Made by a program: the position numbers and the translations under genes. Shown here piece by piece: positions 1,016-52,878 of a DNA stretch of 64,000 nucleotides. Below the pieces are notes generated by a model. It saw only the letters and a program-made list of their open reading frames with translations, made no database searches and had not been told where the DNA came from. The DNA is taken from positions 416,001-480,000 of the forward strand of contig CH464491.1 of the NCBI GenBank assembly GCA_000002445.1, written 5' to 3'. Origin of the DNA: Trypanosoma brucei. Taxonomy: Eukaryota. Every line of letters starts with the position of its first letter. The first letter of the stretch is position 1.

Positions 1016-1978
1016 TAATTAACTTGGAGTAGAAACTCAAGGAGGAGAGGGGAATTATGGGAGGGTTGGAAATGTGCCAAGGAGTGGAGAGGAAACAACA
1101 GGCAGTGACCATGAGGAGGAAGCGGGGAAGGGATGGTGATGAAGTGCATTAACATACTTTGCAGGTGAGATGAGCTCAATGCGCAACAACGATACAAGTG
1201 GAGGCACACCCACAGACATAGGCTCGGAAATAGATGTGCTCAGGTGGAGCCGCTTAATCTCATCTTTCCACATACAAAAGCGATGCAAAAGCGCTCCCAA
1301 CGCCTTCCATCGTCTCACGATGCTCCGCAGTTTGTGAATTCCCTAGACTCGTTTTGTCGAGGAAAGGATGCTGCTTTTTCTTTCTTTCTACTCTCCCACC
1401 CTCTCAACCTTGTTCCTTTTTTTTTCGCTATTGTTCCAAATGTCATCCTTATGTATTATATGTGAAATTAGAACCACTCAGCCGTGCCCACATCATAGGG
1501 GCGTGAATAACCTACTGGAAGGAAGAAGATGCAGACGTGAAACAGCTAAAAGAGACAACAGTTTCAAGAAGGGAAGAAAAGTTTGGGTTATGAACAGTGC
1601 TTGAGACGTCATCTGTTCCTTCACCACTTATCGGCCCTTTTTTTGTTTATTTGTTGCACACGCAAATATACACACACACACAAGCTGAAACGTAGACTAC
1701 TCTGGTTTAATCTGTTGTGAATGTCTTGAAGCCGTTTTTCCGAGAATAAAAGCAGAGAAGGGGGGAAAGCGATCTGAGAAAAACTCGCTCCCCACTCCTA
1801 CTGGCCGTATGATACTCGTACCCTTTTTGTTATGAGCTCTGCTTCGTGTTATTTACCTTTTGTTGCCTGTTTCCTTTCCCGATTTGCCCGGTTTCCTCCA
1901 CACCTTTTCAACTTGTTGTGCTGTTGGACACCCTTTACCATCCTTCGTATTATTTCCCACAATAATAAAAAAGAGGAT

Positions 1979-2485
1979 ATGATGTGCAATTCCTTTGTTG
2001 CCCTTTTGGTTTCTCTCGCGTTATCCCGTGGGAGCTTCGCTGATGTGGACGTTGGCGACTCCAAAGGGCGGCCAGCGGATGAGTGCCGCTTATTGGGATT
2101 TGACAAACCTAGTGTTCGTTGTCGTCATTGTACACTCCTGAAGCAGCACACAACAAATTTCACGCTGTATGAAGAGTGTCTGGCTTGCTGTGTAGATGAG
2201 AAGGTCCCACAGCTGTTATGGTACGCCACGGCCCGGTTAGTGGTGAAGAGCAAATCCCGGGACGAACCTGATCGAGAAGTGGATAAATTCTTAGCGAAGT
2301 ATAGGAATAAATTTGGGAACCGCTTACAGGTAGTGAACAGTGCAATTGGGCAACCGACACATCTGATCATGGTGGGCGAACGCGGCACCAGGGATGCGCA
2401 GTGGGTCGTCGAAGACTGGTCGGTAAGCTCTCTGCATGATTACCTGGTGCGGGCGTTCAATATGGAGACGGAGGAACTTTTGTAA
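1979..2485 (+). CDS. Sep15/SelF-family (15 kDa selenoprotein-like) secretory protein that lacks the Sec/Cys redox motif
   Basis: The Cys pattern C-R-x-LGF-x6-C-x2-C-x-LL...L-x3-C-x2-CC-x-E (ADECRLLGFDKPSVRCRHCTLLKQ...EECLACCVDEK) matches the UGGT-binding Cys-rich domain of Sep15 (human SEACRELGFSSNLLCSSCDLLGQ...DCRGCCQEE), and a C-terminal thioredoxin-like segment aligns as well. A predicted signal peptide (MMCNSFVALLVSLALSRGSFA) starts at an ATG near 1979. The track ORF begins at 1832, but that stretch is a polypyrimidine tract and probably 5' UTR / splice-acceptor sequence. The position equivalent to the CxU/CGU redox motif reads KSK, and there is no in-frame TGA. Confidence 0.45.
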   Translation: MMCNSFVALLVSLALSRGSFADVDVGDSKGRPADECRLLGFDKPSVRCRHCTLLKQHTTNFTLYEECLACCVDEKVPQLLWYATARLVVKSKSRDEPDREVDKFLAKYRNKFGNRLQVVNSAIGQPTHLIMVGERGTRDAQWVVEDWSVSSLHDYLVRAFNMETEELL

Positions 2486-3189
2486 CATTCCGGAACATGC
2501 TGAAGGAATTGTGGTGCTGTTTTGTTGCCGTTACAGATGTTTGTTGAGCGGTGGCGGTGGGGGGAAAGGTGCTATACGAAATGATGCAGCAGCGACCCGG
2601 ACATACCATTGTAATTTTGTCTCCTCTCCTCTTTCCTCTGACATGTGCCTCCTACTTGTGAATGTTCTTCCTCACTGCTTCTGTTGTGCCTTTGCACGTC
2701 ACATCAAATTTCAATATACATGTCCGATCACTCTCATTATTGTAATTCTTGCTTTTCTCGATTATTGGGTGTTGCTCCTTCTCCTTCACAAGAAGGTATA
2801 ACAACTTTAGCACGACCTTGGAGAGCATTTCGCGAGTTCCATCTCCAATCTTGAGCGTGATTATTTTAGTGTTTTCCCCTGTTTAATTTAAAGTTCCACT
2901 CAAATTTACCTGCGTTACGTGTATATACATAAACGAGTGTCAGTGTTACCGACGAGGGCGAGCGGAAGAAGAAGGGAAAGGGCAAAGAGGAGTGAGATAG
3001 GTTTTTATTTATTTCTTTATCATTTTCGGCCAATTTAAATATAATACGGTATACGGATTTACACCTTTCTACAGCTCGGCGGTCGGCAAGGACAGCGTTT
3101 CGTTCACTGAAGCTACATCAGTGAAGTAAGTTGTTTGCCATAACTTGTTTACCTACTATTGTGCGGCAGAATCATTTTATTCGAACACT

Positions 3190-6100
3190 ATGATGCGCCG
3201 TGCCTTTACGCGGGGTGCATGCGCAGCTCAGTCGTTCAGCATGGTACGCTTTTATACGGATGCCAAAACTGTTCGGCAGCCGCACCGCTACGACCAGGCA
3301 ATCACCGCTGAGAACGAAGTATACATTGAACAGCTGCTCAAACAATACGAACAGAACCCGTGCGAAGTGGACGGCAGTTGGATACCAATTCTTGAGAAAC
3401 TGCGTAGCGGCTCTCCGGATGCGCCTCTCGTGCAGGACTTCACCCGACCGGTGAAAGATGCCCCAAAAAGTGACAGCGAGCGTAGGCAAAGCATGGGCAT
3501 TACTTGGATGGTTACGGCATATGAAAGGTATGGTCATCACTACGCCAAAGTGAATCCTCTCAGGAGTGAGCAAGATGTGGAAAGTGACCGAAGGGACTTG
3601 TTAAATCTTCACTACTCCAACTTCGGTTTCACAGATCAAGACCTTACCAAGGTGTTTCCTGTAGATATTGGTGGTGGCTTAAAGGAGGCTTTTGGTGAGA
3701 ATGTGAAGGAAGCAACTCTGCAGCAAATAGTGGAGAAGCTACAGATGATGTACTGTGGTTCCATTGGATTTGAGTTTCTACTAACTGAGGGTGATGACGT
3801 CCGTCACTGGTTTCACAAGGAAATCTTGAAAACGTTTGAACCCCTTAGCAAGGAAGAACGTATTCACATTTTAGACGACGTGGTGAAAAGTTGTGGCTTT
3901 GAAACCTTCATTCAGCTCAAGTATGGGACGCAGTTGCGTTTCGGTCTTGACGGCGCAGAGGCTCTTGTTCCTGCTGTAATTGCATTGATGCAAGAAGCCA
4001 GCGACCTCGGCGTCACGTCCTTTGTCCAGGGCATGCCCCACCGCGGCCGTTTGAACCTTTTAGCCAATGTGAAGGTAAAGCCGCTAACCGACATACTAGC
4101 TGAATTCGAAGGGAAGACACACCGAAATGCGATCGCTCGTCTCGGTGATAACAAATATCACCTGGGAGCAGACAGACAAATTGAATTGCGCAACGGCAAA
4201 GTTATTAACTTTGATTTACTGTGCAATCCCTCCCATTTGGAGGCCATGAATCCCCTGGTTCTTGGCAAAGCGCGCGCACGCATGGTGGTCGAGAAGGACT
4301 CTGAGTGCGTCAGGACCCTCCCCATCATTGCACACGGTGACGCCGCCATATCTGGTTTGGGAATGGGCCACGAGACCATGGGTCTTTGGGATCTTGATAA
4401 CTACCGTGTCGGTGGTACCGTCCACATCATTACGAATAACCAAGTGGGCTTCACAACCGACTCGGTTGATGCTCGAAGGGCAAAGTATTGCAGTGACATT
4501 TCAAAAATACACGCCACACCCGTGTTGCACGTCAATAGCAACGATGTTGAGGCGTGTGTTCGCGCGGCGCGCATCGCGGCACGTTTCAGGCAGACGTTCC
4601 ACCGTGACATTATCATTGATCTTATCGGTTACCGACGAAATGGTCACAATGAAGCAGATTTCCCCGATTTTACCCAGCCGCAAATGTACCAAATCGTTCG
4701 ATCGCTTCGACCGCTGGTTGACCTTTACTCCGATACGCTGGTGGAGGAGGGTGTTCTAACAAAGGAAGATGTTAAGGCAAAGAAGAAGGAATACGAATCA
4801 CGACTGCGTGAAGCCTACGAAACTGCGCAGAGCTGTCCAGAGTACACAAAGGTGATCCCTAATTTAAGGGAAGATGCGGGGAATGCGAGCGAAGGCTACG
4901 ATCTTGCGGCTGAGAAGGAGGCAAACCTCCCAAAGGCAGTTGAAACGGGTGTCGACATTGAAGTACTACGCCGAGTTGGTTTGCACGTCACAACAATACC
5001 AAGCGAGGTAAAGAAGGTTCACCCCGTTGTGGAGCGTACATACGCGGCACGGAAGAAGGCCATTGAATCCGGTGAAGGTGCCGAATGGTGTTTGGCTGAG
5101 ATGCTGGCGTTTGGAGCCACGGCGTTGGAAGGAACACATGTGCGGTTGGCAGGGGAGGATGTTGAGCGGGGAACTTTCACTCAGCGCCATGCCGCGGTAA
5201 CAGACTTGGAGACAAACAAAAAGTACATACCGTTGTGTAGTCTGAGCGAAGACCAGGCGCTCGTCACGATATGCAACAGCAGTCTTTCCGAGTTCGGTGT
5301 GTCAGGCTTCGAATTGGGCTACAATGCCGTGAATCCACACACCCTGGGCATGTGGGAAGCGCAATTCGGCGACTTCGCGAATGGCGCCCAGGTTATTTTT
5401 GACCAATTCTTATGTTGTGGCGAAGAAAAATGGAATGCCAAATACAGCCTCGTCTTGTCACTCCCGCATGGTTACTCTGGTGCGGGTCCCGAACACAGTT
5501 CGGCCCGCATTGAGCGGTACCTGCAACTGTGCAGCGATACTGACGTGGTACCACACAACTTTCGTCGTGGCTGCCCACTCCAACTGCTGGAGGTCCGCAT
5601 CCAACGTTTCAACTGGCAGGTCTGTTATCCCAGCACACCTGCAAACTACTTCCATGTTCTCCGCCGTCAAGTGCGGCGGGGAGACCCCAAACCACTTGTT
5701 GTTTTCTTCTCAAAGGCGCGACTTCGTGCCCCTAATGTTTCATCTCTCAGTGAGATGTCTACGGGTACGTCATTTAAGCCAGTCATCGACACCGCTGTGA
5801 ACGACGAGGTTATTGCTCGCAAGGTTCTCTTCTGTACTGGTCAGATTGAGAGCATCGTGGATGATCGCCGAAAGAAGCTTCAAGCGGAAAAGCCAGGCGT
5901 TCACGACGATGTTGTACTGGTCAAGTTGGAACAGCTCTCACCATTTCCGTGGGAACAAGTGGCCGATGTATTGGAAAAGTATCACAGTCGGAACCCGAAC
6001 GTCCAGTTTGCGTGGTTGCAGGAGGAACCAAAGAACATGGGTTCATGGGCGTATGTGCGGCCGCGCCTTCAAAGACTGCTCAGACACTTGGGAATGGCGG

Positions 6101-6216
6101 GGTCAAGTGATTTCTTGCCATATGTCGGACGCGTGACAGCGGCCTCACCATCCACCGGATACGCCACCGTTCACGCTGAGGAGGAGGCAGAAATCATCAG
6201 ACAGGCGCTGGCGTAA
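3190..6216 (+). CDS. 2-oxoglutarate dehydrogenase E1 component (mitochondrial)
   Basis: The 1008 aa protein carries the hallmark OGDH E1 blocks: thiamine-diphosphate-binding transketolase-like regions (AHGDAAISGLGMGHETMGL, GDFANGAQVIFDQFLCCGEEKWNAKYSLVLSLPHGYSGAGPEHSSARIERYLQ) and the C-terminal OGDH domain. The N-terminus MMRRAFTRGA is Arg-rich and looks like a mitochondrial presequence. The track start at 3145 is a TTG, and the first in-frame ATG is near 3190. Confidence 0.93.
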   Translation: MMRRAFTRGACAAQSFSMVRFYTDAKTVRQPHRYDQAITAENEVYIEQLLKQYEQNPCEVDGSWIPILEKLRSGSPDAPLVQDFTRPVKDAPKSDSERRQSMGITWMVTAYERYGHHYAKVNPLRSEQDVESDRRDLLNLHYSNFGFTDQDLTKVFPVDIGGGLKEAFGENVKEATLQQIVEKLQMMYCGSIGFEFLLTEGDDVRHWFHKEILKTFEPLSKEERIHILDDVVKSCGFETFIQLKYGTQLRFGLDGAEALVPAVIALMQEASDLGVTSFVQGMPHRGRLNLLANVKVKPLTDILAEFEGKTHRNAIARLGDNKYHLGADRQIELRNGKVINFDLLCNPSHLEAMNPLVLGKARARMVVEKDSECVRTLPIIAHGDAAISGLGMGHETMGLWDLDNYRVGGTVHIITNNQVGFTTDSVDARRAKYCSDISKIHATPVLHVNSNDVEACVRAARIAARFRQTFHRDIIIDLIGYRRNGHNEADFPDFTQPQMYQIVRSLRPLVDLYSDTLVEEGVLTKEDVKAKKKEYESRLREAYETAQSCPEYTKVIPNLREDAGNASEGYDLAAEKEANLPKAVETGVDIEVLRRVGLHVTTIPSEVKKVHPVVERTYAARKKAIESGEGAEWCLAEMLAFGATALEGTHVRLAGEDVERGTFTQRHAAVTDLETNKKYIPLCSLSEDQALVTICNSSLSEFGVSGFELGYNAVNPHTLGMWEAQFGDFANGAQVIFDQFLCCGEEKWNAKYSLVLSLPHGYSGAGPEHSSARIERYLQLCSDTDVVPHNFRRGCPLQLLEVRIQRFNWQVCYPSTPANYFHVLRRQVRRGDPKPLVVFFSKARLRAPNVSSLSEMSTGTSFKPVIDTAVNDEVIARKVLFCTGQIESIVDDRRKKLQAEKPGVHDDVVLVKLEQLSPFPWEQVADVLEKYHSRNPNVQFAWLQEEPKNMGSWAYVRPRLQRLLRHLGMAGSSDFLPYVGRVTAASPSTGYATVHAEEEAEIIRQALA

Positions 6217-7850: not shown

Positions 7851-10800
7851 ATGCGCAGTGCGCTTCCAGAACGAGCCCTGTGGGTTGACGACCAGTACGC
7901 AACGCGTTGTCGTGGGTGTGATGCTCCTTTCACATTACTTCGCCGCCGTCACCACTGCCGACACTGTGGACAGATATTCTGCGGCGACTGTTTAGCAACT
8001 ACTCATACGACTACTGCAGGCCGTATAATCACCGATAAAATAGCAACAATGGTGGGCCTTCGTGTGGATGGGTCCCACAAAATATGTCACGAGTGTGATC
8101 GCATTGTCCGCAAGCGCCGCTTCGTTAAGCGCTACATAGGGCAACCGGCAATGATTGCAAATGAGACATCTTTACATCACACAGATGAAACATCGGCACC
8201 AAAGCTTTCTGAATCACCGCCGACCCCAAACATAAGTGAAGAGCACGTCGATGTCGCAGCTTCAAGTGGAGAGATGATGCCGACTAAGTTAGAGGCAACG
8301 CTCTCTTCCTCCATAGACGAAAAGTGCAATGAGAAGGATGAGAATATGGTGGCAACAACAAAATTGGCACCAGTGCCGCTTGAATCGGAGCAACCGCCCA
8401 CGGAGGAAATTCCGACCCACCCCGAAACCCCGAAAGAGCGGGAGATCAGCTATAGCCTCGCAGAACTTCCGCTATACAGCCGCAACAGCATGACTGTGTG
8501 GATTGAGAGGTTACGGAGGGAGGCTCAGGGTCGCAAGTGGGACGGAGCCGCACGACCTCCAAAACCGTTAAGTAACCGTTGTGTCTTCAAAGCGGAACCC
8601 AAAGCCAAGTTCACCGTCCTGGAAGCCGCGGAGGGCCCCACCGCCTCAATGGCCACCGTTTTTACAGCACCTGTTGCTCAGGAAGAATTGCAGAAACTCG
8701 AACAGGAGGTGTCGTTTCACCTCATTAAACGTGCCTCGCGTCACTTTATGAGTGAGGAGGTGCTATTGTCGGGGGGGGGCTTGGATAAGGTGGAGTGGGT
8801 TGCTGGAATATGCGATTTAGCATGGCGTGTGGTGTCGCAAACCCTTGTCGTCCCTCGTGAACATGTACTTGCGCACTTGGACGTAATTTGTGTACCCGGA
8901 GGGTCGCTTTCTGAAACGAAAATCATTCCCGGGGTGGCCTTTCTGCAGACGGTGGCGTTTAGGCAAATGAGGACTACAGTAAAGCTCCCCCGTATTTTGC
9001 TCTTGGCGGGAGATGTGGGTGTTGCCGTGAAGCCACTGACAGACCTTACGGAATACATTGGAAGTTGTGAGGGCTATTTGGACAAGCAGTACCAACGTAT
9101 TAAACTGTGGAACCCCTCGGTGATTGTCGTAGAGGGAAGGATGCATCACTACCTGTTGGACAGGATTCAGAGGGAATCAGATATCACACTTGTTCTTCAG
9201 GCTGGGAAAGCGGCACTCCATCGGTTGTCGCGCTGCTGCAGTGCAAGCATCATAAGGGACTTGCAGTACGTGAGTGGTATGGATGTTAGTGATCCCTCCG
9301 CGTTGGGAACCTGTGACACTTTTCAGCTTATCCAAATAGGGGGTAAAAATATTTGTGCATTTAGTGGACTTCGAATGCCATCTTTTACAACCGTGCTATT
9401 ACGCGGAGGTGAGGGGGGGCAGTTGGATGCTGCTAAACGGATACTGGTTAATTGTGCCATAACAGCGTACCACCTTGCGCTCCAAGCGCACTGCTTCGCT
9501 GATTTCGGAATCGGGATGTGTCCAGAGTACAACCCCGATGGTGTAGCTGGCGATGAGGAGGGACGCGAGGAGAACCGGAGATTGCCATCGCCATGTGGAA
9601 ACTTGGCTGCTTCGAACCTTCACGATCACGTGGAGTGCATGACGTTTATTTCATCTTCCCCACGGGACGAGGACCTTGCGGCAACGCTATCGATGAATAT
9701 TGCTATTAAATACCCAGATGACGTAACCAACATGGACCCGAGGTACACCAAGCTGGTGACTGATTGTCTCGAAGTCGGCACTGCCTTGCTCGACACGGCT
9801 GCAGGTGATGATCCGGCTGGGGTAACACCGATGTCGTCTATGATCTCTAACGTCCACCAGCATTTTGAGTCATTTTCTTTTTACAGCGATGCCGATGAAA
9901 CGCTTCGTGAATACCTAACTGCTCGAGCCAGAGAGGGTGACGGCACGCGCCTCATTGTTCATGGAAATAAGCGTGTCTGGGTAACGGTAAAAGCAAATGC
10001 AAGCAGCGGCAGCAGGACCAACGCACAGGGGTCGCGCGCTTTTAGTGGGTTGGGCACGACATCGCAGAGCCTTAAGTTGGCGCAACCGTGCGGTTCCCTC
10101 CAGTTGGGGGAGAAACTGGAAAATGATTCTTGGAGACTCCCACTTCGAACTGAGGCCATTTGTAAGCAATGTATGCAGGATGTTACGTCCAACTTTAATA
10201 CAGTTCCAATGGAACCATGTTCTGTTCATACTTTGAACATTTCCTGGGGAGCGTTTTTGGAGTTTCTCATTTACACTTCACCTTCCGTTGTCATGACGTG
10301 TGGCCACCGCATGTGTGAAAGTTCCTTCCTCTCTTTCACATTGTTTCCCTACTCTACAGCGGAGGTTGCGGTATCTATTCGTGTGGAGGAACTCCCAGTG
10401 TACGACATTATTCCTCCTTCAATGACAATGCCTTTATGCGCTGACGTCGTCTCCATGTATTACCATCACGAGTTTGAGGAATTACGCCAGTGCGTTGCTC
10501 AAACTATTGCTATTGTTCAAACCGCATTGAGCCCCCAAATGAGTCAGCAAGTCGGAATGGCGAATCAAGCGAAGAATGCGAAGCAGACGTTTTCTCAACT
10601 CCTAAGCAGCCGTAATTGTATAACCGACGCTGACACAACTAATGTTACTGAGGAAAGAGGAAGATCATTGTTGAAGCAAGCGGAGGATCTTATTGGGCGC
10701 TTGTCGTCGCTGCAGAGCACGGAAGGTCTCACCCAGGTTCGTTGTGGCGAAATGGCGGAACTTATTATTGATACTCAGGATTGGTTTGCTGCGTATGTCG

Positions 10801-12194
10801 CTCTGCTGGAGCGCCGCGGAGGAAAGGTTTCCTCACTGGTGGACACATTGAACCTGGATTGCACATCCTGGGCGTTAGATATGGCGAGAAGCTACTGTGT
10901 TCGACCGGACGAGCCCTCATCCTTTTTGGCGGTAGCGCTTAGGGCTATAGGAATATGGTCGGAAAGCTCACAAGATTCCTTCAGAAGTGATTTGACTCCC
11001 TGCGGGGGTTATTGCCCAGCTCCCTTCGCCGATGCATACGCAGAGGACATCGAACTAACGGCCATTGGCGAAGAAGTGCAAAAAGAATCCATGGAGAAAA
11101 CTGTGGAGTTTGTGCTTGGTGTTTCCCCTTCCAATCCAACAGATGCATCTTCTCCGTTTGCAGCCATTTGCTCGGTATCTGATGCGCTTGAAGTGTTGGG
11201 TGAAGGAGTCACCAAAACGAAAGCAACATTCAAGCACGTTGTGGATTGCTTTTATCCATGGGACAAGGGAGAGACGTTCCGCGCAACGGTGGAAGTGATG
11301 TTCCCTACCCATTTCGCAGCATTGCAATACCTTTACACGGAGGGCAAAGTGGACGAGTTGATGTTATCACTTTCCCGTTGTCGTGCCTTCAAACCGCAAG
11401 GGGGGAAAACAAACAGCGATTTCTTCATCACGTTAGATGGACGTTTTTTGCTGAAGCAGATCAAGCAGGCGGAGTTGCTGCACTTCGCCGAATTTGGTCC
11501 GCGATACTTCACCCAGTTGCGTAAGGTCTATAGTCATGCGATCAGAAGTGGAGTTCGTGTAGGGTCGGTGCCATTTGGGTGTTCACTGGGCAAAGTCCTT
11601 GGTCTGTTCTCTTTGCATGTGAAAGGGCGGAAGCGACTCTCGGATTCCTCCACGGAAGCCCGCTTCTTCGTTGTAATGGAAAGCGTTTTCTACTCCCGCC
11701 AACCAGACGTCATGTACGACCTGAAGGGAAGTCAGCGGAACCGTGTAGCGCGTGAGGGATCAGTGGTTCTTTTGGATCAAGACCTCGCTAAGATCCTCTG
11801 CAGGGGCTCTTTTTTCTTCTGTTCCGGCGAGACCAAAAATCTCTTCATGGATAGCATAACATGCGATGCGCACCTGCTGGCTACCAGCTCCATTATGGAC
11901 TACTCGCTTATTGTTGGAGTCGATCACACAACCCGCCAACTTTACGTTGGAATAATTGACTATCTTCATCCCTACACAGGGGCCAAAGCCATAGAATCTA
12001 AGGTAAAAGCGGGACTGGAAACCGTTCTTGGTGGCCAGGGGCGCGACCCAACCATTATTGATCCTCCCAGCTACCGAGAGAGATTCACGCGGTGGTTAGG
12101 AGATTGTGTGTTTAGTGTGCCCACAAAAAGACTCGCCGTGCCGTGGGTTACGGGAAGGGAGGGAAAGTCAGGGGATTCATGCAGTTTGGCTTAA
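7851..12194 (+). CDS. Fab1/PIKfyve-type 1-phosphatidylinositol-3-phosphate 5-kinase (FYVE finger + CCT/chaperonin-like domain + PIPK catalytic domain)
   Basis: An N-terminal FYVE zinc finger (WVDDQYATRCRGCDAPFTLLRRRHHCRHCGQIFCGDC) is followed by a TCP-1-like central region. The C-terminal PIP kinase catalytic domain carries GKTNSDFFITLDGRFLLKQIK...MDYSLIVGVDH...IIDYLHPYT motifs. Confidence 0.9.
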   Translation: MRSALPERALWVDDQYATRCRGCDAPFTLLRRRHHCRHCGQIFCGDCLATTHTTTAGRIITDKIATMVGLRVDGSHKICHECDRIVRKRRFVKRYIGQPAMIANETSLHHTDETSAPKLSESPPTPNISEEHVDVAASSGEMMPTKLEATLSSSIDEKCNEKDENMVATTKLAPVPLESEQPPTEEIPTHPETPKEREISYSLAELPLYSRNSMTVWIERLRREAQGRKWDGAARPPKPLSNRCVFKAEPKAKFTVLEAAEGPTASMATVFTAPVAQEELQKLEQEVSFHLIKRASRHFMSEEVLLSGGGLDKVEWVAGICDLAWRVVSQTLVVPREHVLAHLDVICVPGGSLSETKIIPGVAFLQTVAFRQMRTTVKLPRILLLAGDVGVAVKPLTDLTEYIGSCEGYLDKQYQRIKLWNPSVIVVEGRMHHYLLDRIQRESDITLVLQAGKAALHRLSRCCSASIIRDLQYVSGMDVSDPSALGTCDTFQLIQIGGKNICAFSGLRMPSFTTVLLRGGEGGQLDAAKRILVNCAITAYHLALQAHCFADFGIGMCPEYNPDGVAGDEEGREENRRLPSPCGNLAASNLHDHVECMTFISSSPRDEDLAATLSMNIAIKYPDDVTNMDPRYTKLVTDCLEVGTALLDTAAGDDPAGVTPMSSMISNVHQHFESFSFYSDADETLREYLTARAREGDGTRLIVHGNKRVWVTVKANASSGSRTNAQGSRAFSGLGTTSQSLKLAQPCGSLQLGEKLENDSWRLPLRTEAICKQCMQDVTSNFNTVPMEPCSVHTLNISWGAFLEFLIYTSPSVVMTCGHRMCESSFLSFTLFPYSTAEVAVSIRVEELPVYDIIPPSMTMPLCADVVSMYYHHEFEELRQCVAQTIAIVQTALSPQMSQQVGMANQAKNAKQTFSQLLSSRNCITDADTTNVTEERGRSLLKQAEDLIGRLSSLQSTEGLTQVRCGEMAELIIDTQDWFAAYVALLERRGGKVSSLVDTLNLDCTSWALDMARSYCVRPDEPSSFLAVALRAIGIWSESSQDSFRSDLTPCGGYCPAPFADAYAEDIELTAIGEEVQKESMEKTVEFVLGVSPSNPTDASSPFAAICSVSDALEVLGEGVTKTKATFKHVVDCFYPWDKGETFRATVEVMFPTHFAALQYLYTEGKVDELMLSLSRCRAFKPQGGKTNSDFFITLDGRFLLKQIKQAELLHFAEFGPRYFTQLRKVYSHAIRSGVRVGSVPFGCSLGKVLGLFSLHVKGRKRLSDSSTEARFFVVMESVFYSRQPDVMYDLKGSQRNRVAREGSVVLLDQDLAKILCRGSFFFCSGETKNLFMDSITCDAHLLATSSIMDYSLIVGVDHTTRQLYVGIIDYLHPYTGAKAIESKVKAGLETVLGGQGRDPTIIDPPSYRERFTRWLGDCVFSVPTKRLAVPWVTGREGKSGDSCSLA

Positions 12195-12986: not shown

Positions 12987-14300
12987 ATGCTGGTGTCCCT
13001 CCATTTCTTTTGCTGTCGTGCGCTGCTACTTACACTGGCCTCCTGGGCAGCAGCATCAGGAGACGACGACGAGCCGTCTACAAGATTACACAAGTCTCTA
13101 GGGAGCGATGCACTTCAGGTCGTATGTCATATAAAGCGGATTGCGGATCTGGCGCGAAAGGATACACCAACGTACATCCTAAACAGGATTAGGGAACGAG
13201 AAGCCTCAGCCTTGCATGCTGTGGGAAGGGTGAAGCACTATATAGATCAAGTCAATGCCATCATTGCAATGCGCAAGGGCACACCAGACGGTGAAAAGAC
13301 AGAGCCCCTCATGACCAAAATTTATCAATTGTGTGGGGAGGCCGAGGCGGCTGCGAACTCCGCATCGAGTACTGTAGGAAAAGCGAGAGCGAAGGCTGAA
13401 ACAGCCGCAGGGGATGTGATGAAGCACGCCGCTGAAGTGTCCGGGAGTCCTCAAGATAGAACAACGGACGGTACCGGCTTGCGGCAACTGCTCGATTGGC
13501 ATTGCAAGGGCAACGTTCGCATTCCTACTGAATTTGAGTGTGTCTCTTACGGGCCTTCCAGCTCTTCATCAGATGGTAGCAGTGGGTCAACAGTGGATTG
13601 TACCCAGCGGCGCCCCGACGTGAACTACAAAACTTTAGATTCCGCAAAAATGAAAGCAGCCATGGAGAAATGGGTTAGTGTGAAACCACCCGCCTCGGAG
13701 ACAGTTTCAACAGGATGCAGAAACTACAATACAAATGAATATTTGTGCGCGGAACTTGAGAAGTGGGTGCCGTCTTATAGACGGCTAACGGAAGGAATGC
13801 TTACCCTGGAGCAGGCATTGCGTGAAGTTAGTTTTGTGGCAGCGGCAGTAGAGCGACAGTGGACAATTGCGTACCATCTTTATAATGAGGTGGAAAAGAA
13901 TCATGATTTGGAATCCCTTTCACAAGTAGTTAATAAAAAAAAGCACGAGATTGAAGCAACAAGAAACAGCACAGAGGATATGGAATTTTTGCACCGCAAC
14001 GGCTCCTTCGACGACGGGCTTACTGACCTAAGTGGCTGCGAGGGGGAGGAAAACGTTGGCGGTAACGGTGACAGCACCGAAGGGGGTCCGCAGAGTAAAG
14101 AATCAGCGGAAGCCTTGAAAAAGTCGCAAAGAAGTAAGAAAATTATTGTATTTGTAACAGTTGGTTTCGTCTCACTTGCAGTTGCCGTTTCCATAGTAGC
14201 GGCGTTCTTGTGCGTGTGCAGGAGGCGGCGGCTGCGAGAGAGTGCCGCACGCACGGGGGAAGTCTCAAAGGAATGCGCAGAACCTTCAGCAAAGAAGTAA
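12987..14300 (+). CDS. hypothetical type I membrane protein (signal peptide, ~380 aa ectodomain, single TM helix, short basic cytoplasmic tail)
   Basis: The start is an ATG. The N-terminal hydrophobic leader is MLVSLHFFCCRALLLTLASWAAASG. The C-terminal IIVFVTVGFVSLAVAVSIVAAFLCV segment is followed by CRRRRLRESAAR...KK. I recognise no catalytic motif. The architecture resembles trypanosome invariant surface proteins, but this is not a sequence-level identification. Confidence 0.5.
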   Translation: MLVSLHFFCCRALLLTLASWAAASGDDDEPSTRLHKSLGSDALQVVCHIKRIADLARKDTPTYILNRIREREASALHAVGRVKHYIDQVNAIIAMRKGTPDGEKTEPLMTKIYQLCGEAEAAANSASSTVGKARAKAETAAGDVMKHAAEVSGSPQDRTTDGTGLRQLLDWHCKGNVRIPTEFECVSYGPSSSSSDGSSGSTVDCTQRRPDVNYKTLDSAKMKAAMEKWVSVKPPASETVSTGCRNYNTNEYLCAELEKWVPSYRRLTEGMLTLEQALREVSFVAAAVERQWTIAYHLYNEVEKNHDLESLSQVVNKKKHEIEATRNSTEDMEFLHRNGSFDDGLTDLSGCEGEENVGGNGDSTEGGPQSKESAEALKKSQRSKKIIVFVTVGFVSLAVAVSIVAAFLCVCRRRRLRESAARTGEVSKECAEPSAKK

Positions 14301-19300: not shown

Positions 19301-20105
19301 TACGGATGTATTCGACAATTTCTACCGTGAGTTGGAGGAAACGAATGCGAAGGAGGATAATGAATACACTTCTCCTACTGCATGTCTGGACCCCGAAGTG
19401 TACAGTCGGTTGTGGAGTGGTTTACGCGTACGCATTGGTATTCACACCGGGTTGTGTGATATTCGGCATGATGAAGTCACAAAAGGTTACGACTACTACG
19501 GTCCCGCCACCAACATGGCAGCACGCACGGAGAGTGTTGCTAACGGTGGGCAAGTATTAATAACACATGCAACTTATATGTCTCTGAGTGAGTCGGAGCG
19601 GCAACAGTTCGGTGTGACCGCACTCGGACCCGTGGCATTGCGTGGCGTTCCTCAACCGGTGCAGCTGTACCAGCTAAGTGCGGTACCGGGTCGTACCTTC
19701 GCACCCCTCCGCCTTGACCGGGAGTATTTCTTCGAAGATGAAAATGAGACCACCAACTCCACAAGCGAAAATAGCTCGTCACGTGCGGAGCTTGGTGAAT
19801 CGGCACAAATGATTATGACTTCACTTCAGATGTTGCTCAGTACCTTCAAGGGTCCGCAGCGTGAGAAATTGCTAACGCCGTACTGTGAGCGCTGGCGTGT
19901 GCCGCTACCCCGGAAGTGTACAAGAGTGTGGGATGAGGAATATTGTCAGGAGGTTATGCGTCGCATTGCTGCAAAGGTCGGGCACGTGGCGGACCACTGT
20001 GCGGTGGGCCAAAGCAATCACTCCACAAGTACACTGAGCAGCGCATCAGTGGTGATTATCTCCGAAAACAAAGCTTTCCTCGATACATGTTCTTCCATGC
20101 TTTGA
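16389..20105 (+). CDS. GRESAG4: receptor-type adenylate cyclase (GRESAG4 family): signal peptide, large extracellular periplasmic-binding-protein-like domain, one TM helix, class III cyclase catalytic domain
   Basis: The catalytic domain block PVTLIFTDIENSTAQWAAHPDLMTEAVAAHHRLIRALVLRHNCYEVKTIGDSFMIASKHP...LRVRIGIHTGLCDIRHDEVTKGYDYYGPATNMAARTE is typical of trypanosome ESAG4/GRESAG4 cyclases. A TM segment IAGIVMGSVIALMLFATLGVALLC precedes it. The ORF starts at an ATG. Confidence 0.9.
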   Translation: MPAALCGLSSSAPHTRASSHRMRHVTLQRGAKVIGSLLLLIMLTVGSLARPIEATDVVTVKVLSLMYGAGSPNDVVDSLNAGLGASLAAREDEVSSMFKVSLIQPSSYDEPIEQLFNTTVERTNNELLVIVGPLGNQNVLWVQDRLEVHDLVAFAPLSYSDKTRGWNPHFYYPSVEPDAELLALVRYAIVFLRVPRVGFMYLKDTHFGETSLLFARDVMSMMGYKLCGTFAIEGGDDRSEDATFEAEWKQFVDTRPQAVLLFGSPHDLTAKFITKMVTDNRTAGAYVLTVSNMQNFLLKNWKKALEVAGANLKPGQIVITGTSPLAGDAQYEVIQRFQREMTKHLETNKDWGGFAKPGHFSTNHNDGELMVLGWLAGELLVRALVESVSLTNRTLFKASLYNQRRYLIDDMVIGDFGGECSEDAQRQGAVRRCNQGGNIVYMKKVVDQYHLEPLREGFLTWGTSRCFSEGVRVGAPLSGVVILASDHTVAHRANSRYFSGATALSRNDRIWEDDRLFLHPLESSLSGAATDLHDNRDKIVISAVFGVVTNDVLSTEGLIFFDPMVVFPQLSMFRRHVIHFFPTLAQELYVFARYLSHSESSFADAIIRSDEAGEIAKVLAMSLVTFGVSPGFGVFLDVASPIRESHLKRGGDTFVLGLTAPDVKLISKHLETHPEARVFITFTDLVLLYEEFISEFNATTNTKAQRLFFATSLPHWADNSSKSETITAYHRAIPDPKQWSPMSLRGFAVARVMQTLLVPMKKVNAALLAEQVFWQTSFVVDDMKYGPFNDVDCVANGVQLSSNCVWNYGATDIAVWSFARVLNPSLPVAEDPITPSMEYKKPREQLTSSEIAGIVMGSVIALMLFATLGVALLCSRRNKRDNDRAPREPTDPVTLIFTDIENSTAQWAAHPDLMTEAVAAHHRLIRALVLRHNCYEVKTIGDSFMIASKHPSQAVQLAADVQLMFLHNDWGTDVFDNFYRELEETNAKEDNEYTSPTACLDPEVYSRLWSGLRVRIGIHTGLCDIRHDEVTKGYDYYGPATNMAARTESVANGGQVLITHATYMSLSESERQQFGVTALGPVALRGVPQPVQLYQLSAVPGRTFAPLRLDREYFFEDENETTNSTSENSSSRAELGESAQMIMTSLQMLLSTFKGPQREKLLTPYCERWRVPLPRKCTRVWDEEYCQEVMRRIAAKVGHVADHCAVGQSNHSTSTLSSASVVIISENKAFLDTCSSML

Positions 20106-23071
20106 CGTCACGCCTGCACGTGTTTATGCGGACATATTAGCAGTTAAATATGTACGATCTTCCTCTGTATAGTCTAGTTATTAACCATTGAGTTAGCCAA
20201 GACCTGTTAACTTTCCGGTGTGAGCGTTCTTTTTTTCTTTTCTTTTTTTGTTTTCATTTTTTACTTTGAGTACTTTACAAATCAATAAGGCTTCGAAAAT
20301 GTTGTTTTCCTTTCTTTTTCCTTACTGCGTTACGGTAGCGGCGTTTTTTTTATCTTTTTTAATAACCTCAGGGACCTCTATGTAATATGCCAATTAGTTA
20401 CATCTCTCTAGGATAGGCATAATTTCTCATGATGTATAAATATAAATATCTTTTTTTATTTTTATTTTTATGTATATGCTTATCTAATCTATGTATTTTA
20501 TTTTCTTGTTTCATTTCCTCTTATGACTATTAATGTTTTCATCTTACACTAATTTAAATTTTTTCCACCCCGTATTACCGAACACATTTGTCACATTGGG
20601 CTCCGGTTCGGGATTTTGAAGACGCCTGGCTCATGCCTTCCTCCACTGCATAACACTGCCCATAACCGTTTAGCGGCACATAATAATATAAATAGTAATA
20701 ACAATGACAATAATGATAAATGTTTTTTTCTCATGAGCGTTTGCGGTATTACCCATGTATTTTCTTTGTTTTTTTTTTCGTCATTATTGCCGTTATTTTC
20801 ATCACCAATTGTTTACTCTCAACCTCCCAATGACACTTCCCTCAGCCCAACTGAATGCGCCCATAGAGCGCTTACCGTAGTGTTTATTATTATTTTTTCT
20901 TCCGAATCAAGTTAGTATAAATTTACTCGTGTGTTTTAATTTGATTTAACCTTATGCGTAGCACAAATGCATAATATCTTAGCAGGTACTGTCTTGATTC
21001 ATTCTTATTCCATGGTACTCTCTGTGGTTCACCGTGTTGATGAAGCTTTTGTATATTTATATTCCCCATCATTTTGATAGTGCACGAAAAAGCTGTAACA
21101 TATCTTCATAGGTGAAATTTATGCATTATACTCCCAACTGCTTTTGTAGGTGAGGGATGAGGTGCGGAAGGAAAAATCTGCACTGGATCCTCTGAGGTGT
21201 GTGGTGGTTGTCGTTGATTGAATTATGATTTTCTTGTCGTGACCCCGCCGCCGGGGGAAATTTGGCAGTCTCTTTTCGACAAATGCGATATAGGCTTGTA
21301 TGTTGGGCTGGAAGATGGATCGCCTGTGGTGTGTTGGGCTTTCTTTATTTGGTGTGGAAGCTTTATGCGCATTTTTGTTGTTGTAGAGGTGGTGAAAATC
21401 ACATTTTATGCACTTGGTGGTAGAAGTATTGGGAGGGTTTTGATGTTTTTCATGCCCTTATTCACGCACTCGAATGGCGCCACCTCAGCCGGGGAACTCG
21501 GCTCTCTTCGAAGTGTCGCATTCTTTTTCCTCCGCTTGTCCATACAATACCTACTCGCAAGCTGGTGAAAATTAAGCCGCCAAGTCCCTCTCAACGGTAT
21601 GCGCATAATCCGTGCCTGGCAAAATCAACTATTCTGAAACACTGTCTGTAGACACAAAGGGCGGTTAAGGCGCTCATTTTCATGTTCCATTTACACTTCC
21701 TCCATCACACAATCAAACAAAAAACTTTCTCATTTTAGTGACAATGCCATTCGAACGGCGTCTTCGAGTATGCCAAAGCGGACCCATGTGCCCTACTCGG
21801 GCCGCAACGCCAGCAGCGCGTTATGGCCTTTACCAAGGGTTTACTGGGGAGTATAGTCGTTTCTCCATATTCCTGCATCATAGTTCCCTCTGGTTGTATT
21901 TCCCACTTTCTTTCTATAATCCTTCTGCGTTGGTTGACGAATGGATGTGTTACGTGGGCAGTTGCTCCATCACTGCGAAATGGTAGAAGGTGGGGGTGAT
22001 AAACCTTGAGGTGTCGGGTGAAAGCAACCCTTTTCCACGTTCTGTACCGCCACATTCTGTATTCGGGTGCGCCAACCGCCGGCTTGAGTGCTTTTTCGTC
22101 CACATTGGCAGAAACGGGGTGCAGGTTGCAGAGTCCTTTTATTTATTTATTTTTGTGGGTGCCATACTTTTCAAGACTTCTCAAACAATTTCCTCTGCAA
22201 TGCCGTCAGCCGCCTATTCGAGGTGAGTTTATCTTAAGGGAAATGAGGCGCATGACAACGTTGTTTTTTTTTCCACTTTACCCACAGCGAGGGCCTTCGC
22301 AGGGGCCGACGCATTGCCTGCGACAAAATGCCCAACTTTTGATATGCTTCGTTTCTTGTTGGGGAAAGATTTCAGTGCGAGCTTCGTTTGAAGAGCGAAA
22401 ACAATTATGTATCTACGCTTTAAAGGGCATTTGATCAAAAGAAAATACCTTTCCACAGAGTTTCTCGTTGTCGTTAGTGTGTCCGATGTTCCGGTTAAGG
22501 TTAACAACTGGAGTGTGGATGTTTCCCGCAACGCGAAGCATTTTCACTTGGTAGTGGAAGCGGTGGCGTCGTCGGAACATGTCTTTTCGTGAGACTTTCG
22601 AGGTGTGATAAGGAGTTGTGTAGCGGTTCCGCGCCTATGCGAGTGTAAAGCCTGCAGGCTGTTTTCTTCCCGCCGCCGCGGTTTCCTGCTATGTTCAAGT
22701 GAGGTTGTCTCGTTCCGTTCGAATGTTGTTGTGGAGTTCACCCCTGGTGACCGGCATTCCCTTTAGGCAGTGCAATTCACCTTAGTTATCTGACTACTAG
22801 CCTTATTTTGCTCTGTTATTTAAATATATATTTGATTGCCGTTACAATCTGACACTGTGCTGAGGAAGGTAATTGGGAGACATCTATGATAAAGTTCGCT
22901 TGTGTATTGAAAGGATGCAAGCTCCATTACAAAATAGGTAATGTGTTTTATTTCAACTGGTCGCTCGAGGCATGCTATCTCGTGCTTTAAATATTTTCTC
23001 AGCCTTATTTTTTCTAGTGTTCAACACCTGAAGTTGTTGCTGCTACTTTTCGTCGGAAGGAAGGCGTGGGT

Positions 23072-23491
23072 ATGTCCTTTTTCCAGTTGGATTGGGAATG
23101 TTCATATCAAGAGTATATGAAAATGATCTATCATCACGCAACGAACTATGTTCCGCCACGGGTTTCACAAGAGAGGCACCTCATCACTTGTAGGGAGCTG
23201 CTGAATGAAGCTCAGAGGGAATGCAAGGGAGGCAAGTATGATCTTTCCTTCTTTCACTACCTTCGGTGTATGGAGATTCTCACTAAGGTGGGGATACCCT
23301 CTACATACAAAGATTCAATGGTTCTGAAGAAGCAGTGTATGGATGCCATTGAAGCCCTCATGAATAGCGCTCTTAAAAATCACTATGAAAAAATGGTTAA
23401 AGAATTAAAGTCAAAGAAGGAAGGAGTTGATGCGGTTGACTATAAATTGTATGGCGACAGACTTGCCCACGTATCTGGGGGAAACAGCTAA
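23072..23491 (+). CDS. possible small helical protein (AMSH/USP8 N-terminal dimerisation-domain-like), either a stand-alone gene or a truncated remnant
   Basis: The 139 aa ORF has a polypyrimidine tract plus AG immediately upstream. The pattern VPPR...(helix)...GKYDLSFFHYLRCMEIL...YKDS...KKQ loosely resembles the N-terminal MIT-like domain of AMSH/STAMBP (IPPRRYFRSG...AFILYNKYITLF...HRDYKS). No JAMM domain follows it. The track start (23066) is a GTG. The ORF sits in an otherwise ORF-free 7.4 kb stretch. Confidence 0.2.
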   Translation: MSFFQLDWECSYQEYMKMIYHHATNYVPPRVSQERHLITCRELLNEAQRECKGGKYDLSFFHYLRCMEILTKVGIPSTYKDSMVLKKQCMDAIEALMNSALKNHYEKMVKELKSKKEGVDAVDYKLYGDRLAHVSGGNS

Positions 23492-26400: not shown

Positions 26401-27505
26401 TCACAGTTGTAATAATAGCAATGCGTGAAAACACAAATACACGCTCCTCAAATGCATGATACAACCAGAGGTGTAAATAGCTCAAATGGTAGGATTCTCG
26501 ACACATGTGGAAACGAATTAACTCAACTAGCAATATTTTAGTTATATCGAAGCCTTACCACAATCGGTTCAGCTAAAATACTTCAAACGAGTCCTTCAAA
26601 ACCCCTGTTTGTTAATGCTTTTATTTATTTTATTCTGATGCCTGGTGAGCATATTTGGCTGCGATGGATTACTGCTGTACATGTTGGATGTGCGAAATCT
26701 TTCTCTAAATTCACAGAAATATATATCGTACCGTCTTTCATTTTACTACTCCCTTACATTCTCTCCAAACATACATAGATGATACCATAGTCATTATAGC
26801 TATTGAGGAAACTGATACCTTGGTCTTACATTGCCCTGGTCGTGGCCGAAACTTGCAACTTGATTTGTCGTGCATTCCGCTATCCATGCTGGAAGTTGTG
26901 TTGTGCAATATTTTCCCTCCGAGTTATGAGGTGTGATAACTGTCAGTCCTTCAGTTGTGCCCTACCAATCGAATCCATCAGCACTATTTTATTGCATCTC
27001 CTCATTCACTTCCCCTTTTACACAGACATATTTCTACCATTAAAAGTTAAAATGTGACTCATAAGCGATGATGAGACCACACCGAGTTGTTTTGCTATTA
27101 CCTCAGTAGCACCACATGAAAGCAAAGTGTTGGCTTTGCATTGCCCTTCTGTGCCAATAGTCGAAAACAGAAATATAGTGAGGAATGTTTGTTATTATTT
27201 GGAATCCTTTTATTGAGTGTGACTTTGGAATCGTAACATAATTGAAATAAGCAGAGAATGTGTCATCCCTCCCTTCCCATTAATTTTCTACATGTGCTGA
27301 GAGGAGATGAAAAGTGTTTTCAGTGTTTGAAGTTTTGACATTTCAGTGGCATAATACTTCAAGTTAGTGGAAATAAAATTGCATACCCAATGCCATTATG
27401 ATGCAAATACATTCAACTGACAGCATTCAATCATCTCATTGCCAAACTTTGTTTCGACTCTCAGAAATAATATTTTTAGTAGAAAACGGCTACCAAACAT
27501 AAGTA

Positions 27506-40292: not shown

Positions 40293-40431
40293 ACAAACAG
40301 ATGTCTCTAAGAAATAAAAGGGTACGCACCCAGTGAGTGGACAACTACACGTTAAATCAAGGGAAACGAATAGTTAATGTTAAACATTAGTTTCCCAACA
40401 GTTAAGGCATGTAAATCCGGCACACCACAAC

Positions 40432-52824: not shown

Positions 52825-52878
<54 letters not shown>
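52825..52878. repeat. (CA)27 dinucleotide microsatellite in the intergenic region
   Basis: An uninterrupted cacaca... run of ~54 nt read directly from the sequence. Confidence 0.9.

What the first reader, a model, noticed from the sequence alone, without database searches (positions are those of the whole stretch)
1979..2485. Sep15/SelF-like ER protein with the selenocysteine/cysteine redox motif replaced (KSK)
The N-terminal Cys-rich module matches the UGGT-binding domain of 15 kDa selenoproteins very specifically: C-x-x-LGF-x6-C-x2-C-x-LL ... C-x2-CC-x-E. A thioredoxin-like C-terminal half follows. However, the position of the CxU/CGU active site reads KSK, and the frame contains no in-frame TGA, so this would be a redox-inactive Sep15 homolog. 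Trypanosomes are reported to have only three selenoproteins (SelK, SelT, SelTryp). A Sec-less and Cys-less Sep15 relative retaining the UGGT-binding domain would point to a purely structural or chaperone role in glycoprotein quality control.
Basis: partly seen in the sequence, partly recalled or inferred. Interest (0 to 1): 0.5.

Follow-up and report, generated by a model that had tools for sequence, protein, structure and literature searches.

The report
Redox-dead Sep15 homolog in trypanosome ER
This Trypanosoma brucei gene (Tb927.11.1440) encodes an ER-lumen relative of the selenoprotein Sep15/SELENOF that keeps the cysteine-rich domain used to bind the glycoprotein folding sensor UGGT, but has no cysteine or selenocysteine in its thioredoxin-like half, so it cannot use that domain's catalytic motif for thiol chemistry.

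Summary
Window 1979-2485 (+) is an uninterrupted 168-codon ORF ending in TAA. It has a signal peptide, a Sep15-type cysteine-rich domain (CRD) with all six family-invariant Cys, and a thioredoxin-like domain containing no Cys.

Three independent alignments place K90-S91-K92 (AAG AGC AAA, 2246-2254) on the CxU/CxC redox motif. Two Sec-encoding homologs carry their in-frame TGA exactly at the K92 column.

Family assignment fails with the single sequence (Pfam Sep15_SelM 14.6 bits against a cut-off of 26). It is clear at profile level: E 5.8e-16 to Drosophila Sep15 (2A4H), and hhalign probability 97.8%.

The loss is old. Every named or synteny-identified kinetoplastid ortholog lacks the motif. 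The CRD is the most conserved region and the former active-site loop among the least.

The four human SEP15 residues that contact UGGT1 are conserved (F41, L54, W147, Y155).

A 2026 preprint finds Tb927.11.1440 among the strongest BiP-proximity ER-lumen proteins in both life stages and calls it a potential Sep15 homolog. UniProt auto-names it "Selenoprotein F/M domain-containing".

The homology is therefore not new. The pan-kinetoplastid redox-dead state and its implication are. UGGT binding remains inferred; I could not obtain the TbUGGT sequence.

The parts
1979..2485 (+). Coding sequence of the Sep15-like protein (168 aa plus TAA), identified as Tb927.11.1440
   Evidence: Searches show the ORF. 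It is 98-100% identical to T. brucei proteins XP_828235.1 and RHW68500.1. The signal-peptide string MMCNSFVALLVSLALSRGSFA listed for Tb927.11.1440 in the preprint supplement equals residues 1-21.
1979..2041 (+). Signal peptide (residues 1-21; predicted cleavage after SFA)
   Evidence: A hydrophobic core FVALLVSLAL is followed by small residues at -3 and -1 (direct reading). The SignalP-NN entry in the preprint supplement gives the same 21 residues. This segment has low pLDDT in the model. All orthologs have a hydrophobic N-terminus.
2078..2194 (+). Cysteine-rich domain (residues 34-72) with C36, C48, C51, C67, C70, C71 and G40; F41 (2099-2101) and L54 (2138-2140) match human SEP15 F15 and L27, which contact UGGT1
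   Evidence: The six Cys and G40 are invariant in 33 of 33 sequences. The model predicts three helices at pLDDT 94-97. Mean pairwise identity among 16 kinetoplastid-type sequences is 0.49, the highest of any region. Contact residues come from PMC11348098.
2195..2224 (+). Inter-domain linker (residues 73-82)
   Evidence: This segment has lower pLDDT (about 74) and low conservation (0.19).
2225..2458 (+). Thioredoxin-like domain (residues 83-160), Cys-free; W147 (2417-2419) and Y155 (2441-2443) match human W118 and F126
2246..2254 (+). Former redox motif position: K90-S91-K92 (AAG AGC AAA) in place of CxU/CxC
   Evidence: Alignments. The TGA of the Sec-containing homologs on L005 (GTG TGC AAC TGA) and L006 (GTG TGC AAA TGA) falls in the K92 column. 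Loop 90-99 is the least conserved structured segment (0.13) and varies in length.
1832..1978 (+). In-frame upstream extension used by the older 217-aa gene model; most likely the untranslated polypyrimidine tract and trans-splice acceptor region
   Evidence: Positions 1836-1971 contain no AG and are 67-80% pyrimidine in most 30-nt windows. AG dinucleotides at 1972 and 1974 lie just before the ATG at 1979. Orthologs are 156-177 aa and begin with the signal peptide. The TriTrypDB signal peptide starts at MMCNS. This is an inference, not RNA evidence.
2486..3144 (+). 3' flank and intergenic region up to the 2-oxoglutarate dehydrogenase E1 gene; no SECIS element detected
   Evidence: An Rfam scan at E<=10 over 1500-3300 found nothing. 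A whole-window scan at gathering score found only snoRNAs. The method has limited power: in the positive controls a SECIS_1 match appeared downstream of one of two Sec genes, and only at 25 bits.

Best explanation
The gene encodes the kinetoplastid ortholog of Sep15/SELENOF. It is a soluble ER-lumen protein of about 147 residues after signal-peptide removal. Its N-terminal three-helix, three-disulfide CRD most likely still anchors it to UDP-glucose:glycoprotein glucosyltransferase (TbUGGT, Tb927.3.4630). Its thioredoxin-like domain keeps the fold and the two residues that in the human model dock on UGGT's TRXL4 domain. It has lost every Cys/Sec, so that domain cannot form mixed disulfides or isomerise them. 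The proposed mechanism is that of a non-catalytic UGGT accessory subunit. It would be retained in the ER by binding UGGT, since it has no conserved KDEL-type tail. It would then act sterically, for example as the glycan-trapping or pocket-gating lid that Williams et al. proposed as one redox-independent model, or by stabilising UGGT. What is shown: homology over both domains, absence of the redox motif, the age of the loss, ER-lumen residence and expression in both life stages. What is inferred: UGGT binding and the steric, non-redox mode of action.
For: Homology: the profile of hits matches Sep15 2A4H at E 5.8e-16 and SelM at 1e-4. The hhalign of the kinetoplastid profile against human SEP15 gives probability 97.8%, E 1e-12, over 124 columns spanning both domains. 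BLASTP against Strongyloides Selenoprotein F gives 8e-12. Of the 33 aligned sequences, 27 match Pfam Sep15_SelM.

Loss of the motif: KSK sits at CxU, the thioredoxin-like domain has zero Cys and there is no in-frame TGA. The Sec codons of two homologs fall in the K92 column.

The gene is functional, not decaying. The six Cys and G40 are invariant. The CRD is the most conserved region (0.49) and the ex-active-site loop among the least (0.13). Orthologs lie in conserved synteny directly upstream of 2-oxoglutarate dehydrogenase E1 in Leptomonas seymouri, T. theileri and three unnamed contigs, and all lack the motif.

UGGT-binding surface: human F15, L27, W118 and F126 contact UGGT1 in the mutagenesis-validated model (PMC11348098). 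Their counterparts F41, L54, W147 and Y155 are conserved: F/Y in 33 of 33, hydrophobic in 33 of 33, W in 29 of 32, F/Y in 29 of 32.

ER lumen: Tb927.11.1440 is among the strongest BiP-TurboID intensities in bloodstream and procyclic forms and is assigned to the ER by LOPIT in both stages. UGGT is enriched in the same data set.

Context: T. brucei has UGGT, glucosidase II and calreticulin, and UGGT is its only source of glucosylated N-glycans (PMC9472816).
Against: No direct evidence of a UGGT interaction exists, and I could not obtain the TbUGGT sequence. So I could not test whether it has the helix-loop-helix SEP15-binding region that is missing from UGGTs of organisms without SEP15.

Three sequences, one placed in trypanosomatids by synteny and two by resemblance to it (P0015, P0022, P0029), have lost the W147 and Y155 equivalents. 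The thioredoxin-like docking contact is therefore not universally kept.

The C-terminally tagged protein in TrypTag is listed as 'endocytic, cytoplasm[reticulated]', not cleanly ER.

The single sequence is below Pfam's threshold. Fold search alone does not separate Sep15 from other thioredoxin-like folds; the NDUFA2/mL43 family scores higher.

It does reproduce the paper's residue numbering and aligns to 2A4H at 1.4e-27.
Confidence: 0.6

Rival explanations
1. The protein descends from Sep15 but no longer partners with UGGT. The disulfide-locked CRD and the thioredoxin-like scaffold would have been re-used for another ER-lumen partner or client, for example as a BiP-proximal holdase or a cargo-specific folding factor.
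For: The protein is among the very strongest BiP-proximity signals, alongside dedicated chaperones. The sequence is fast-evolving: 34-36% identity within the genus Trypanosoma. A trypanosomatid subgroup has lost the W and F/Y docking residues. The tagged protein is partly seen in endocytic compartments. In human cells, deleting SEP15 changed glucosylation of few UGGT substrates.
Against: Within the CRD, the residues that stay fixed are the six Cys, G40 and the hydrophobic pair that contacts UGGT1 in the human model (F41 and L54). The CRD is the most constrained part of the protein. According to PMC12363830, the CRD fold has no known relatives outside SEP15. UGGT is present and abundant in the same compartment.
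Confidence: 0.25
2. The protein is still redox-active through CRD cysteines. The C48-x-x-C51 or C67-x-x-C70 spacings would act as CxxC motifs and compensate for the lost CxU.
For: Two CxxC-spaced pairs exist in the CRD (direct reading). An older chemical-synthesis study proposed disulfides between adjacent Cys, as mentioned in PMC11348098.
Against: NMR, mass spectrometry and AlphaFold work on human SEP15 shows three long-range structural disulfides (C10-C42, C21-C43, C24-C39). The authors describe the CxxC appearance as deceptive. The same six Cys are invariant in redox-competent and redox-dead members alike, as expected for structural residues.
Confidence: 0.07
3. The missing Cys/Sec is an artefact of a wrong gene model, a frameshift or a sequencing error, or the locus is a decaying pseudogene.
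For: Public models disagree on the start codon (217 aa against 168 aa). Sec genes of this family are mis-called elsewhere: TGA is read as W in P0037 and as a stop in P0038.
Against: The alignment is collinear through the site in a single frame, and the codons are AAG AGC AAA. The same state is found in T. b. gambiense, T. equiperdum, T. congolense, T. vivax, T. rangeli, T. theileri, Strigomonas, Leptomonas and three further syntenic contigs. The protein is detected by mass spectrometry in both life stages. The strong constraint on the CRD is incompatible with a pseudogene.
Confidence: 0.02

Closest known systems
Sep15 / SELENOF (15-kDa selenoprotein; human O60613, Drosophila Sep15 PDB 2A4H)
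   Same: Both have the same two-domain architecture: signal peptide, six-Cys helical CRD, short linker, thioredoxin-like domain. Homology is collinear over both domains. The UGGT-contact residues are conserved. Both reside in the ER lumen without a conserved KDEL-type tail.
   Different: The trypanosome protein has no Sec, no TGA, no detectable SECIS and no Cys at either redox position or anywhere else in the thioredoxin-like domain. The former active-site loop is variable in sequence and length. UGGT binding is untested.
Selenoprotein M (SELENOM; PDB 2A2P)
   Different: SelM has no CRD and uses a CxxU motif. The trypanosome protein has the CRD and matches Sep15 far better than SelM.
Single-Cys and Cys-form Sep15 variants (Drosophila CTC, Strongyloides CEC, Tetraselmis CKQ)
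   Same: They belong to the same family, and Sec has been replaced in each.
   Different: Those variants keep at least the first Cys. The kinetoplastid proteins keep none.
Redox-inactive thioredoxin-fold ER proteins (ERp29, ERp27, the b/b' domains of PDI)
   Different: There is no specific sequence relationship, and those proteins lack the CRD and any UGGT link.

Membership tests
Sep15/SELENOF protein family (by descent) | N-terminal signal peptide and ER-lumen residence | tested here: met
   The hydrophobic N-terminus can be read directly. The SignalP string in the preprint supplement is identical to residues 1-21. LOPIT assigns the protein to the ER in both stages, and it is strongly labelled by BiP-TurboID.
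Sep15/SELENOF protein family (by descent) | Cysteine-rich domain with six conserved Cys (human C10, C21, C24, C39, C42, C43) and the LGF motif | tested here: met
   C36, C48, C51, C67, C70, C71 and G40 are invariant in 33 of 33 sequences. Three helices are predicted at pLDDT above 94. The disulfide pairing itself could not be checked.
Sep15/SELENOF protein family (by descent) | Sep15_SelM thioredoxin-like domain (Pfam PF08806) | tested here: met
   The single sequence is below threshold (14.6 bits against 26). The feature is met at profile level: 2A4H at E 5.8e-16, hhalign probability 97.8%, and 27 of the 33 aligned sequences match PF08806.
Sep15/SELENOF as a selenoprotein / thiol-disulfide oxidoreductase (functional class) | CxU or CxC redox motif in the loop between strand beta1 and helix alpha1 | tested here: not met
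   K90-S91-K92 occupies this position, and there is no Cys after C71.
Sep15/SELENOF as a selenoprotein / thiol-disulfide oxidoreductase (functional class) | In-frame UGA (Sec) with a SECIS element in the 3' UTR | tested here: not met
   There is no in-frame TGA and no SECIS match at E<=10. The SECIS test is weak: the positive control scored only 25 bits in one of two Sec genes. The absence of TGA is decisive.
Sep15/SELENOF as UGGT co-chaperone | Conservation of the residues that contact UGGT1 in the validated human model (F15, L27, W118, F126) | tested here: met
   F41, L54, W147 and Y155 are present in T. brucei and conserved across the alignment. Three sequences of one trypanosomatid subgroup lack the last two.
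Sep15/SELENOF as UGGT co-chaperone | Physical complex with UGGT, and presence of the SEP15-binding helix-loop-helix in the organism's UGGT | not testable with these tools
   The TbUGGT sequence could not be retrieved, and no complex prediction was possible. UGGT is known only to be present in the same ER proteome.
Selenoprotein M | Thioredoxin-like domain only, with a CxxU motif and no CRD | tested here: not met
   A CRD is present and no CxxU/CxxC motif lies in the thioredoxin-like domain. The match to SelM is much weaker than to Sep15.

The most novel reading that the evidence does not exclude
All kinetoplastids have kept, under purifying selection, a UGGT-anchored Sep15 that has had no redox chemistry since before the trypanosomatid radiation. 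This would mean the core function of the Sep15-UGGT partnership is redox-independent (pocket gating, glycan trapping, or UGGT stabilisation or retention), with Sec/Cys chemistry an add-on in other lineages. In T. brucei UGGT is the only entry into the calreticulin cycle and has an unusually broad glycan specificity. The altered subunit could contribute to that specificity.
Probability: 0.35. Interest if true: 0.65.

Novelty: new variant of a known kind. Interest (0 to 1): 0.4.

Why it matters
The role of SEP15's selenocysteine, and of SEP15 itself, in the UGGT folding checkpoint is unresolved. Williams et al. 2024 offer three models, only one of which needs redox chemistry. A naturally redox-dead ortholog that is abundant in the ER and conserved across a whole eukaryotic class is a ready-made separation-of-function allele. 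If it still binds UGGT, the redox-independent models become directly testable in a genetically tractable organism. T. brucei suits this test because UGGT is non-essential there and is the sole source of monoglucosylated glycans. The finding also corrects the functional label 'thiol-disulfide oxidoreductase' that could otherwise be transferred to Tb927.11.1440 by homology.

Tried and rejected
1. Single-sequence searches were uninformative. Pfam was sub-threshold and the PDB search gave no hit. Profiles were needed.

2. The word-indexed homolog search performed poorly. It returned 1, 3 and 6 hits. One search was swamped by 8000 candidates sharing the most words (my guess is low-complexity segments in some query rows). 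As a result, named Leishmania, T. cruzi and Bodo orthologs were not retrieved, and no search remained for UGGT.

3. The TbUGGT sequence could not be obtained, so the SEP15-binding-region test and complex modelling were not done. The PNAS paper has no supplement held as text.

5. P0009 and P0021 from the exhaustive search are translated tandem repeats. They are false positives and were excluded.

6. dN/dS was not attempted. T. brucei subspecies are about 98% identical, and other species are at or below 54% amino-acid identity, so synonymous sites are probably saturated. Region-wise conservation was used instead.

7. A pseudogene or gene-model artefact was considered and rejected (see the rival explanations).

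8. The C-terminal EELL is not a conserved KDEL-type signal. Orthologs end in DEQL, KEEP, VIKK and other sequences.

Full report
**What is there**

Window 1979-2485 (+) is a 168-codon ORF ending in TAA, with no other in-frame stop. It is 98-100% identical to T. brucei proteins. NCBI annotates these as 'hypothetical protein, conserved', and UniProt names them automatically 'Selenoprotein F/M domain-containing protein'.

The gene is Tb927.11.1440, on two grounds:
- The ORF directly downstream (3145-6216) is a 2-oxoglutarate dehydrogenase E1. That gene is Tb927.11.1450 (PMC8094907).
- The signal-peptide string listed for Tb927.11.1440 in a preprint supplement, MMCNSFVALLVSLALSRGSFA, equals residues 1-21 of this ORF.

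Some records use an older 217-aa model that starts at 1832. That start lies in an AG-free, pyrimidine-rich stretch (1836-1971) followed by AG at 1972 and 1974. This looks like a trans-splice acceptor region, not coding sequence. Orthologs are 156-177 aa and begin with the signal peptide.

**Checking the observation**

C67-x2-C70C71. No Cys follows C71.

The single sequence gives only a sub-threshold Pfam match to Sep15_SelM (E 0.035, 14.6 bits against a cut-off of 26) and nothing in the PDB.

An exhaustive phmmer search over 1.84 billion representatives gave 35 hits at E<=1e-3. Two of them are translated tandem repeats and were discarded. The query and 32 of the remaining hits were aligned, giving 33 sequences. 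Profile-level evidence from that alignment is clear:
- 27 of the 33 aligned sequences match Pfam Sep15_SelM.
- A profile of the alignment hits Drosophila Sep15 (2A4H) at E 5.8e-16 and mouse SelM (2A2P) at 1e-4.
- A profile of ten kinetoplastid-type sequences aligns to human SEP15 over 124 columns spanning both domains, with hhalign probability 97.8% and E 1e-12. It reproduces the residue numbering of PMC11348098 and matches 2A4H at 1.4e-27.
- BLASTP against a nematode protein named 'Selenoprotein F' gives 8e-12 over the full length.

In all of these alignments K90-S91-K92 (AAG AGC AAA, 2246-2254) occupies the CxU/CxC position.

Two hits serve as a positive control. P0037 was translated with W and P0038 was truncated. 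Both turn out to carry an in-frame TGA exactly in the K92 column and continue into a complete thioredoxin-like domain: GTG TGC AAC TGA and GTG TGC AAA TGA.

**Structure**

The AlphaFold2 model built from the 33-sequence alignment has a mean pLDDT of 84.5.
- Residues 33-70 form three helices at pLDDT 94-97. This matches the fold described for the human CRD.
- Residues 84-159 form a beta-alpha-beta-beta-beta-alpha thioredoxin-like domain.
- K90-K92 lies at the end of strand beta1, before helix alpha1.

**No selenocysteine machinery**

There is no in-frame TGA. No Rfam match at E<=10 occurs in 1500-3300. The whole window yields only snoRNAs at gathering score.

The SECIS test has limited power. 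In the controls, a full-length SECIS_1 match (25 bits, below the gathering score) appeared about 125 nt downstream of one Sec gene and none downstream of the other. The absence of TGA is the decisive point.

Lobanov et al. 2006 report only SelK, SelT and SelTryp as kinetoplastid selenoproteins and do not mention Sep15.

**Age and constraint**

Named orthologs come from T. congolense, T. vivax, T. rangeli, T. theileri, Strigomonas culicis and Leptomonas seymouri. All lack Cys at both redox positions and throughout the thioredoxin-like domain.

The gene order DM10/EF-hand protein, then Sep15-like, then 2-oxoglutarate dehydrogenase E1, then FYVE/PIP5K protein is the same in the window, in Leptomonas, in T. 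theileri and in an unnamed contig. Two further unnamed contigs also place their Sep15-like gene directly upstream of the E1 gene. The loss therefore predates the trypanosomatid radiation, and probably deeper kinetoplastid splits.

Among 16 kinetoplastid-type sequences, mean pairwise identity by region is as follows:

| Region | Mean pairwise identity |
|---|---|
| CRD (34-72) | 0.49 |
| Strand beta1 (83-89) | 0.40 |
| Other thioredoxin-like elements (100-160) | 0.21-0.35 |
| Former active-site loop (90-99) | 0.13 |

The loop also varies in length. The binding module is under selection and the catalytic loop has decayed. That pattern rules out a pseudogene.

Outside kinetoplastids the same search recovered CxC forms, CxU forms and single-Cys forms such as Tetraselmis CKQ. 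This hit list is biased toward the query and is not a census.

**Mechanism**

Williams et al. (PMC11348098) validated by mutagenesis an AlphaFold model of the human complex.
- The CRD residues F15 and L27 grip F243 of a helix-loop-helix 'SEP15-binding region' of UGGT1.
- The thioredoxin-like residues W118 and F126 touch UGGT1 TRXL4.
- UGGTs of organisms without SEP15 lack that binding region.

The T. brucei counterparts are F41, L54, W147 and Y155. Across the 33 sequences these positions are F/Y in 33 of 33, hydrophobic in 33 of 33, W in 29 of 32 and F/Y in 29 of 32.

T. brucei has UGGT, glucosidase II and calreticulin. Its lipid-linked glycans are not glucosylated, so UGGT is the only route to monoglucosylated glycans (PMC9472816).

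A 2026 preprint (10.64898/2026.04.03.716285) reports Tb927.11.1440 among the strongest BiP-TurboID intensities in both life stages. Its supplement lists LOPIT assignments to the ER in both stages. UGGT is enriched in the same data set.

My best explanation is a non-catalytic UGGT accessory subunit, held in the ER by UGGT binding and acting sterically. Williams et al. list a 'glycan-trapping' model that needs no redox chemistry.

Confidence by component:

| Claim | Confidence |
|---|---|
| Homology and loss of the redox motif | about 0.95 |
| ER-lumen residence | about 0.9 |
| UGGT binding | about 0.55-0.6 |

**Weak points**

- I could not obtain the TbUGGT sequence to test for the binding region.
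- Three trypanosomatid-type sequences have lost the W and Y docking residues.
- The C-terminally tagged protein is listed as partly endocytic.

**Novelty**

The Sep15 similarity is already recorded in UniProt's automatic name and in Fig. S3 of the 2026 preprint. That figure marks Sep15 cysteines without a match, while the text still describes the relative as a 'thiol-disulfide oxidoreductase'.

The following points do not appear in any paper I could search:
- the complete, ancient, clade-wide loss of the redox motif;
- the preferential conservation of the CRD and of the UGGT-contact residues;
- the implication for Sep15 function.

A 2022 review of the trypanosomatid ER discusses UGGT and does not mention Sep15 or selenoproteins.

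I rate this a new variant of a known kind, of moderate interest. Redox-dead thioredoxin folds are common in the ER. This one offers a natural separation-of-function test for an unresolved co-chaperone.

Noticed in passing
window 40466-45468 (-): There is a tandem array of about 988-bp units, each carrying the H/ACA snoRNAs TB11Cs4H1, H2 and H3. Rfam finds 16 matches in five to six units, all above gathering score. This is a known trypanosomatid snoRNA cluster.
   Followed up: partly
window 12987-14300 (+): This ORF of 437 aa matches Pfam ISG65-75, the invariant surface glycoprotein family, at E 1.4e-88.
   Followed up: partly
window 7851-12194 (+): This 1447-aa ORF has FYVE, Cpn60_TCP1 and PIP5K domains, a PIKfyve/Fab1-type lipid kinase architecture. 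It is syntenic in Leptomonas and in an unnamed trypanosomatid contig.
   Followed up: partly
window about 31705-35845: Long ORFs switch from the + strand (up to 31705) to the - strand (from 35845). This suggests a convergent strand-switch region between two polycistronic units. There are also long stretches without ORFs of 150 aa or more at 20105-27506 and 40292-46827; the latter holds the snoRNA array.
   Followed up: no
L005 1501-1914 and L006 414-840: Two Sec-containing Sep15 genes are mis-called in public collections. In P0037 the TGA is translated as W. P0038 is truncated at the TGA, although the frame continues through a full thioredoxin-like domain. A weak SECIS_1 match (25 bits) lies about 125 nt downstream in L005 only.
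   Followed up: yes
P0015 (L003 5361-5867), P0022, P0029: This trypanosomatid-type subgroup of the Sep15-like proteins has replaced the otherwise near-invariant W147 with F or M and Y155 with L, while keeping the CRD intact. Docking of the thioredoxin-like domain on UGGT may have been lost there.
   Followed up: partly
window 1832-1978 (+): The 217-aa model in TREU927 and DAL972 records translates a pyrimidine-rich, AG-free stretch upstream of the likely trans-splice acceptor. The extension is probably not coding.
   Followed up: partly
P0009 and P0021 (hits): These two apparent hits, with 15 and 5 matched stretches, are translations of tandem DNA repeats. Their E-values are inflated by repetition and they are not Sep15 relatives.
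   Followed up: yes
window 52825-52878: This is a perfect (CA)27 microsatellite.
   Followed up: no
window 2156-2164 (N60-F-T62): There is an N-glycosylation sequon inside the CRD of the T. brucei protein. It is absent from T. congolense and other orthologs.
   Followed up: no
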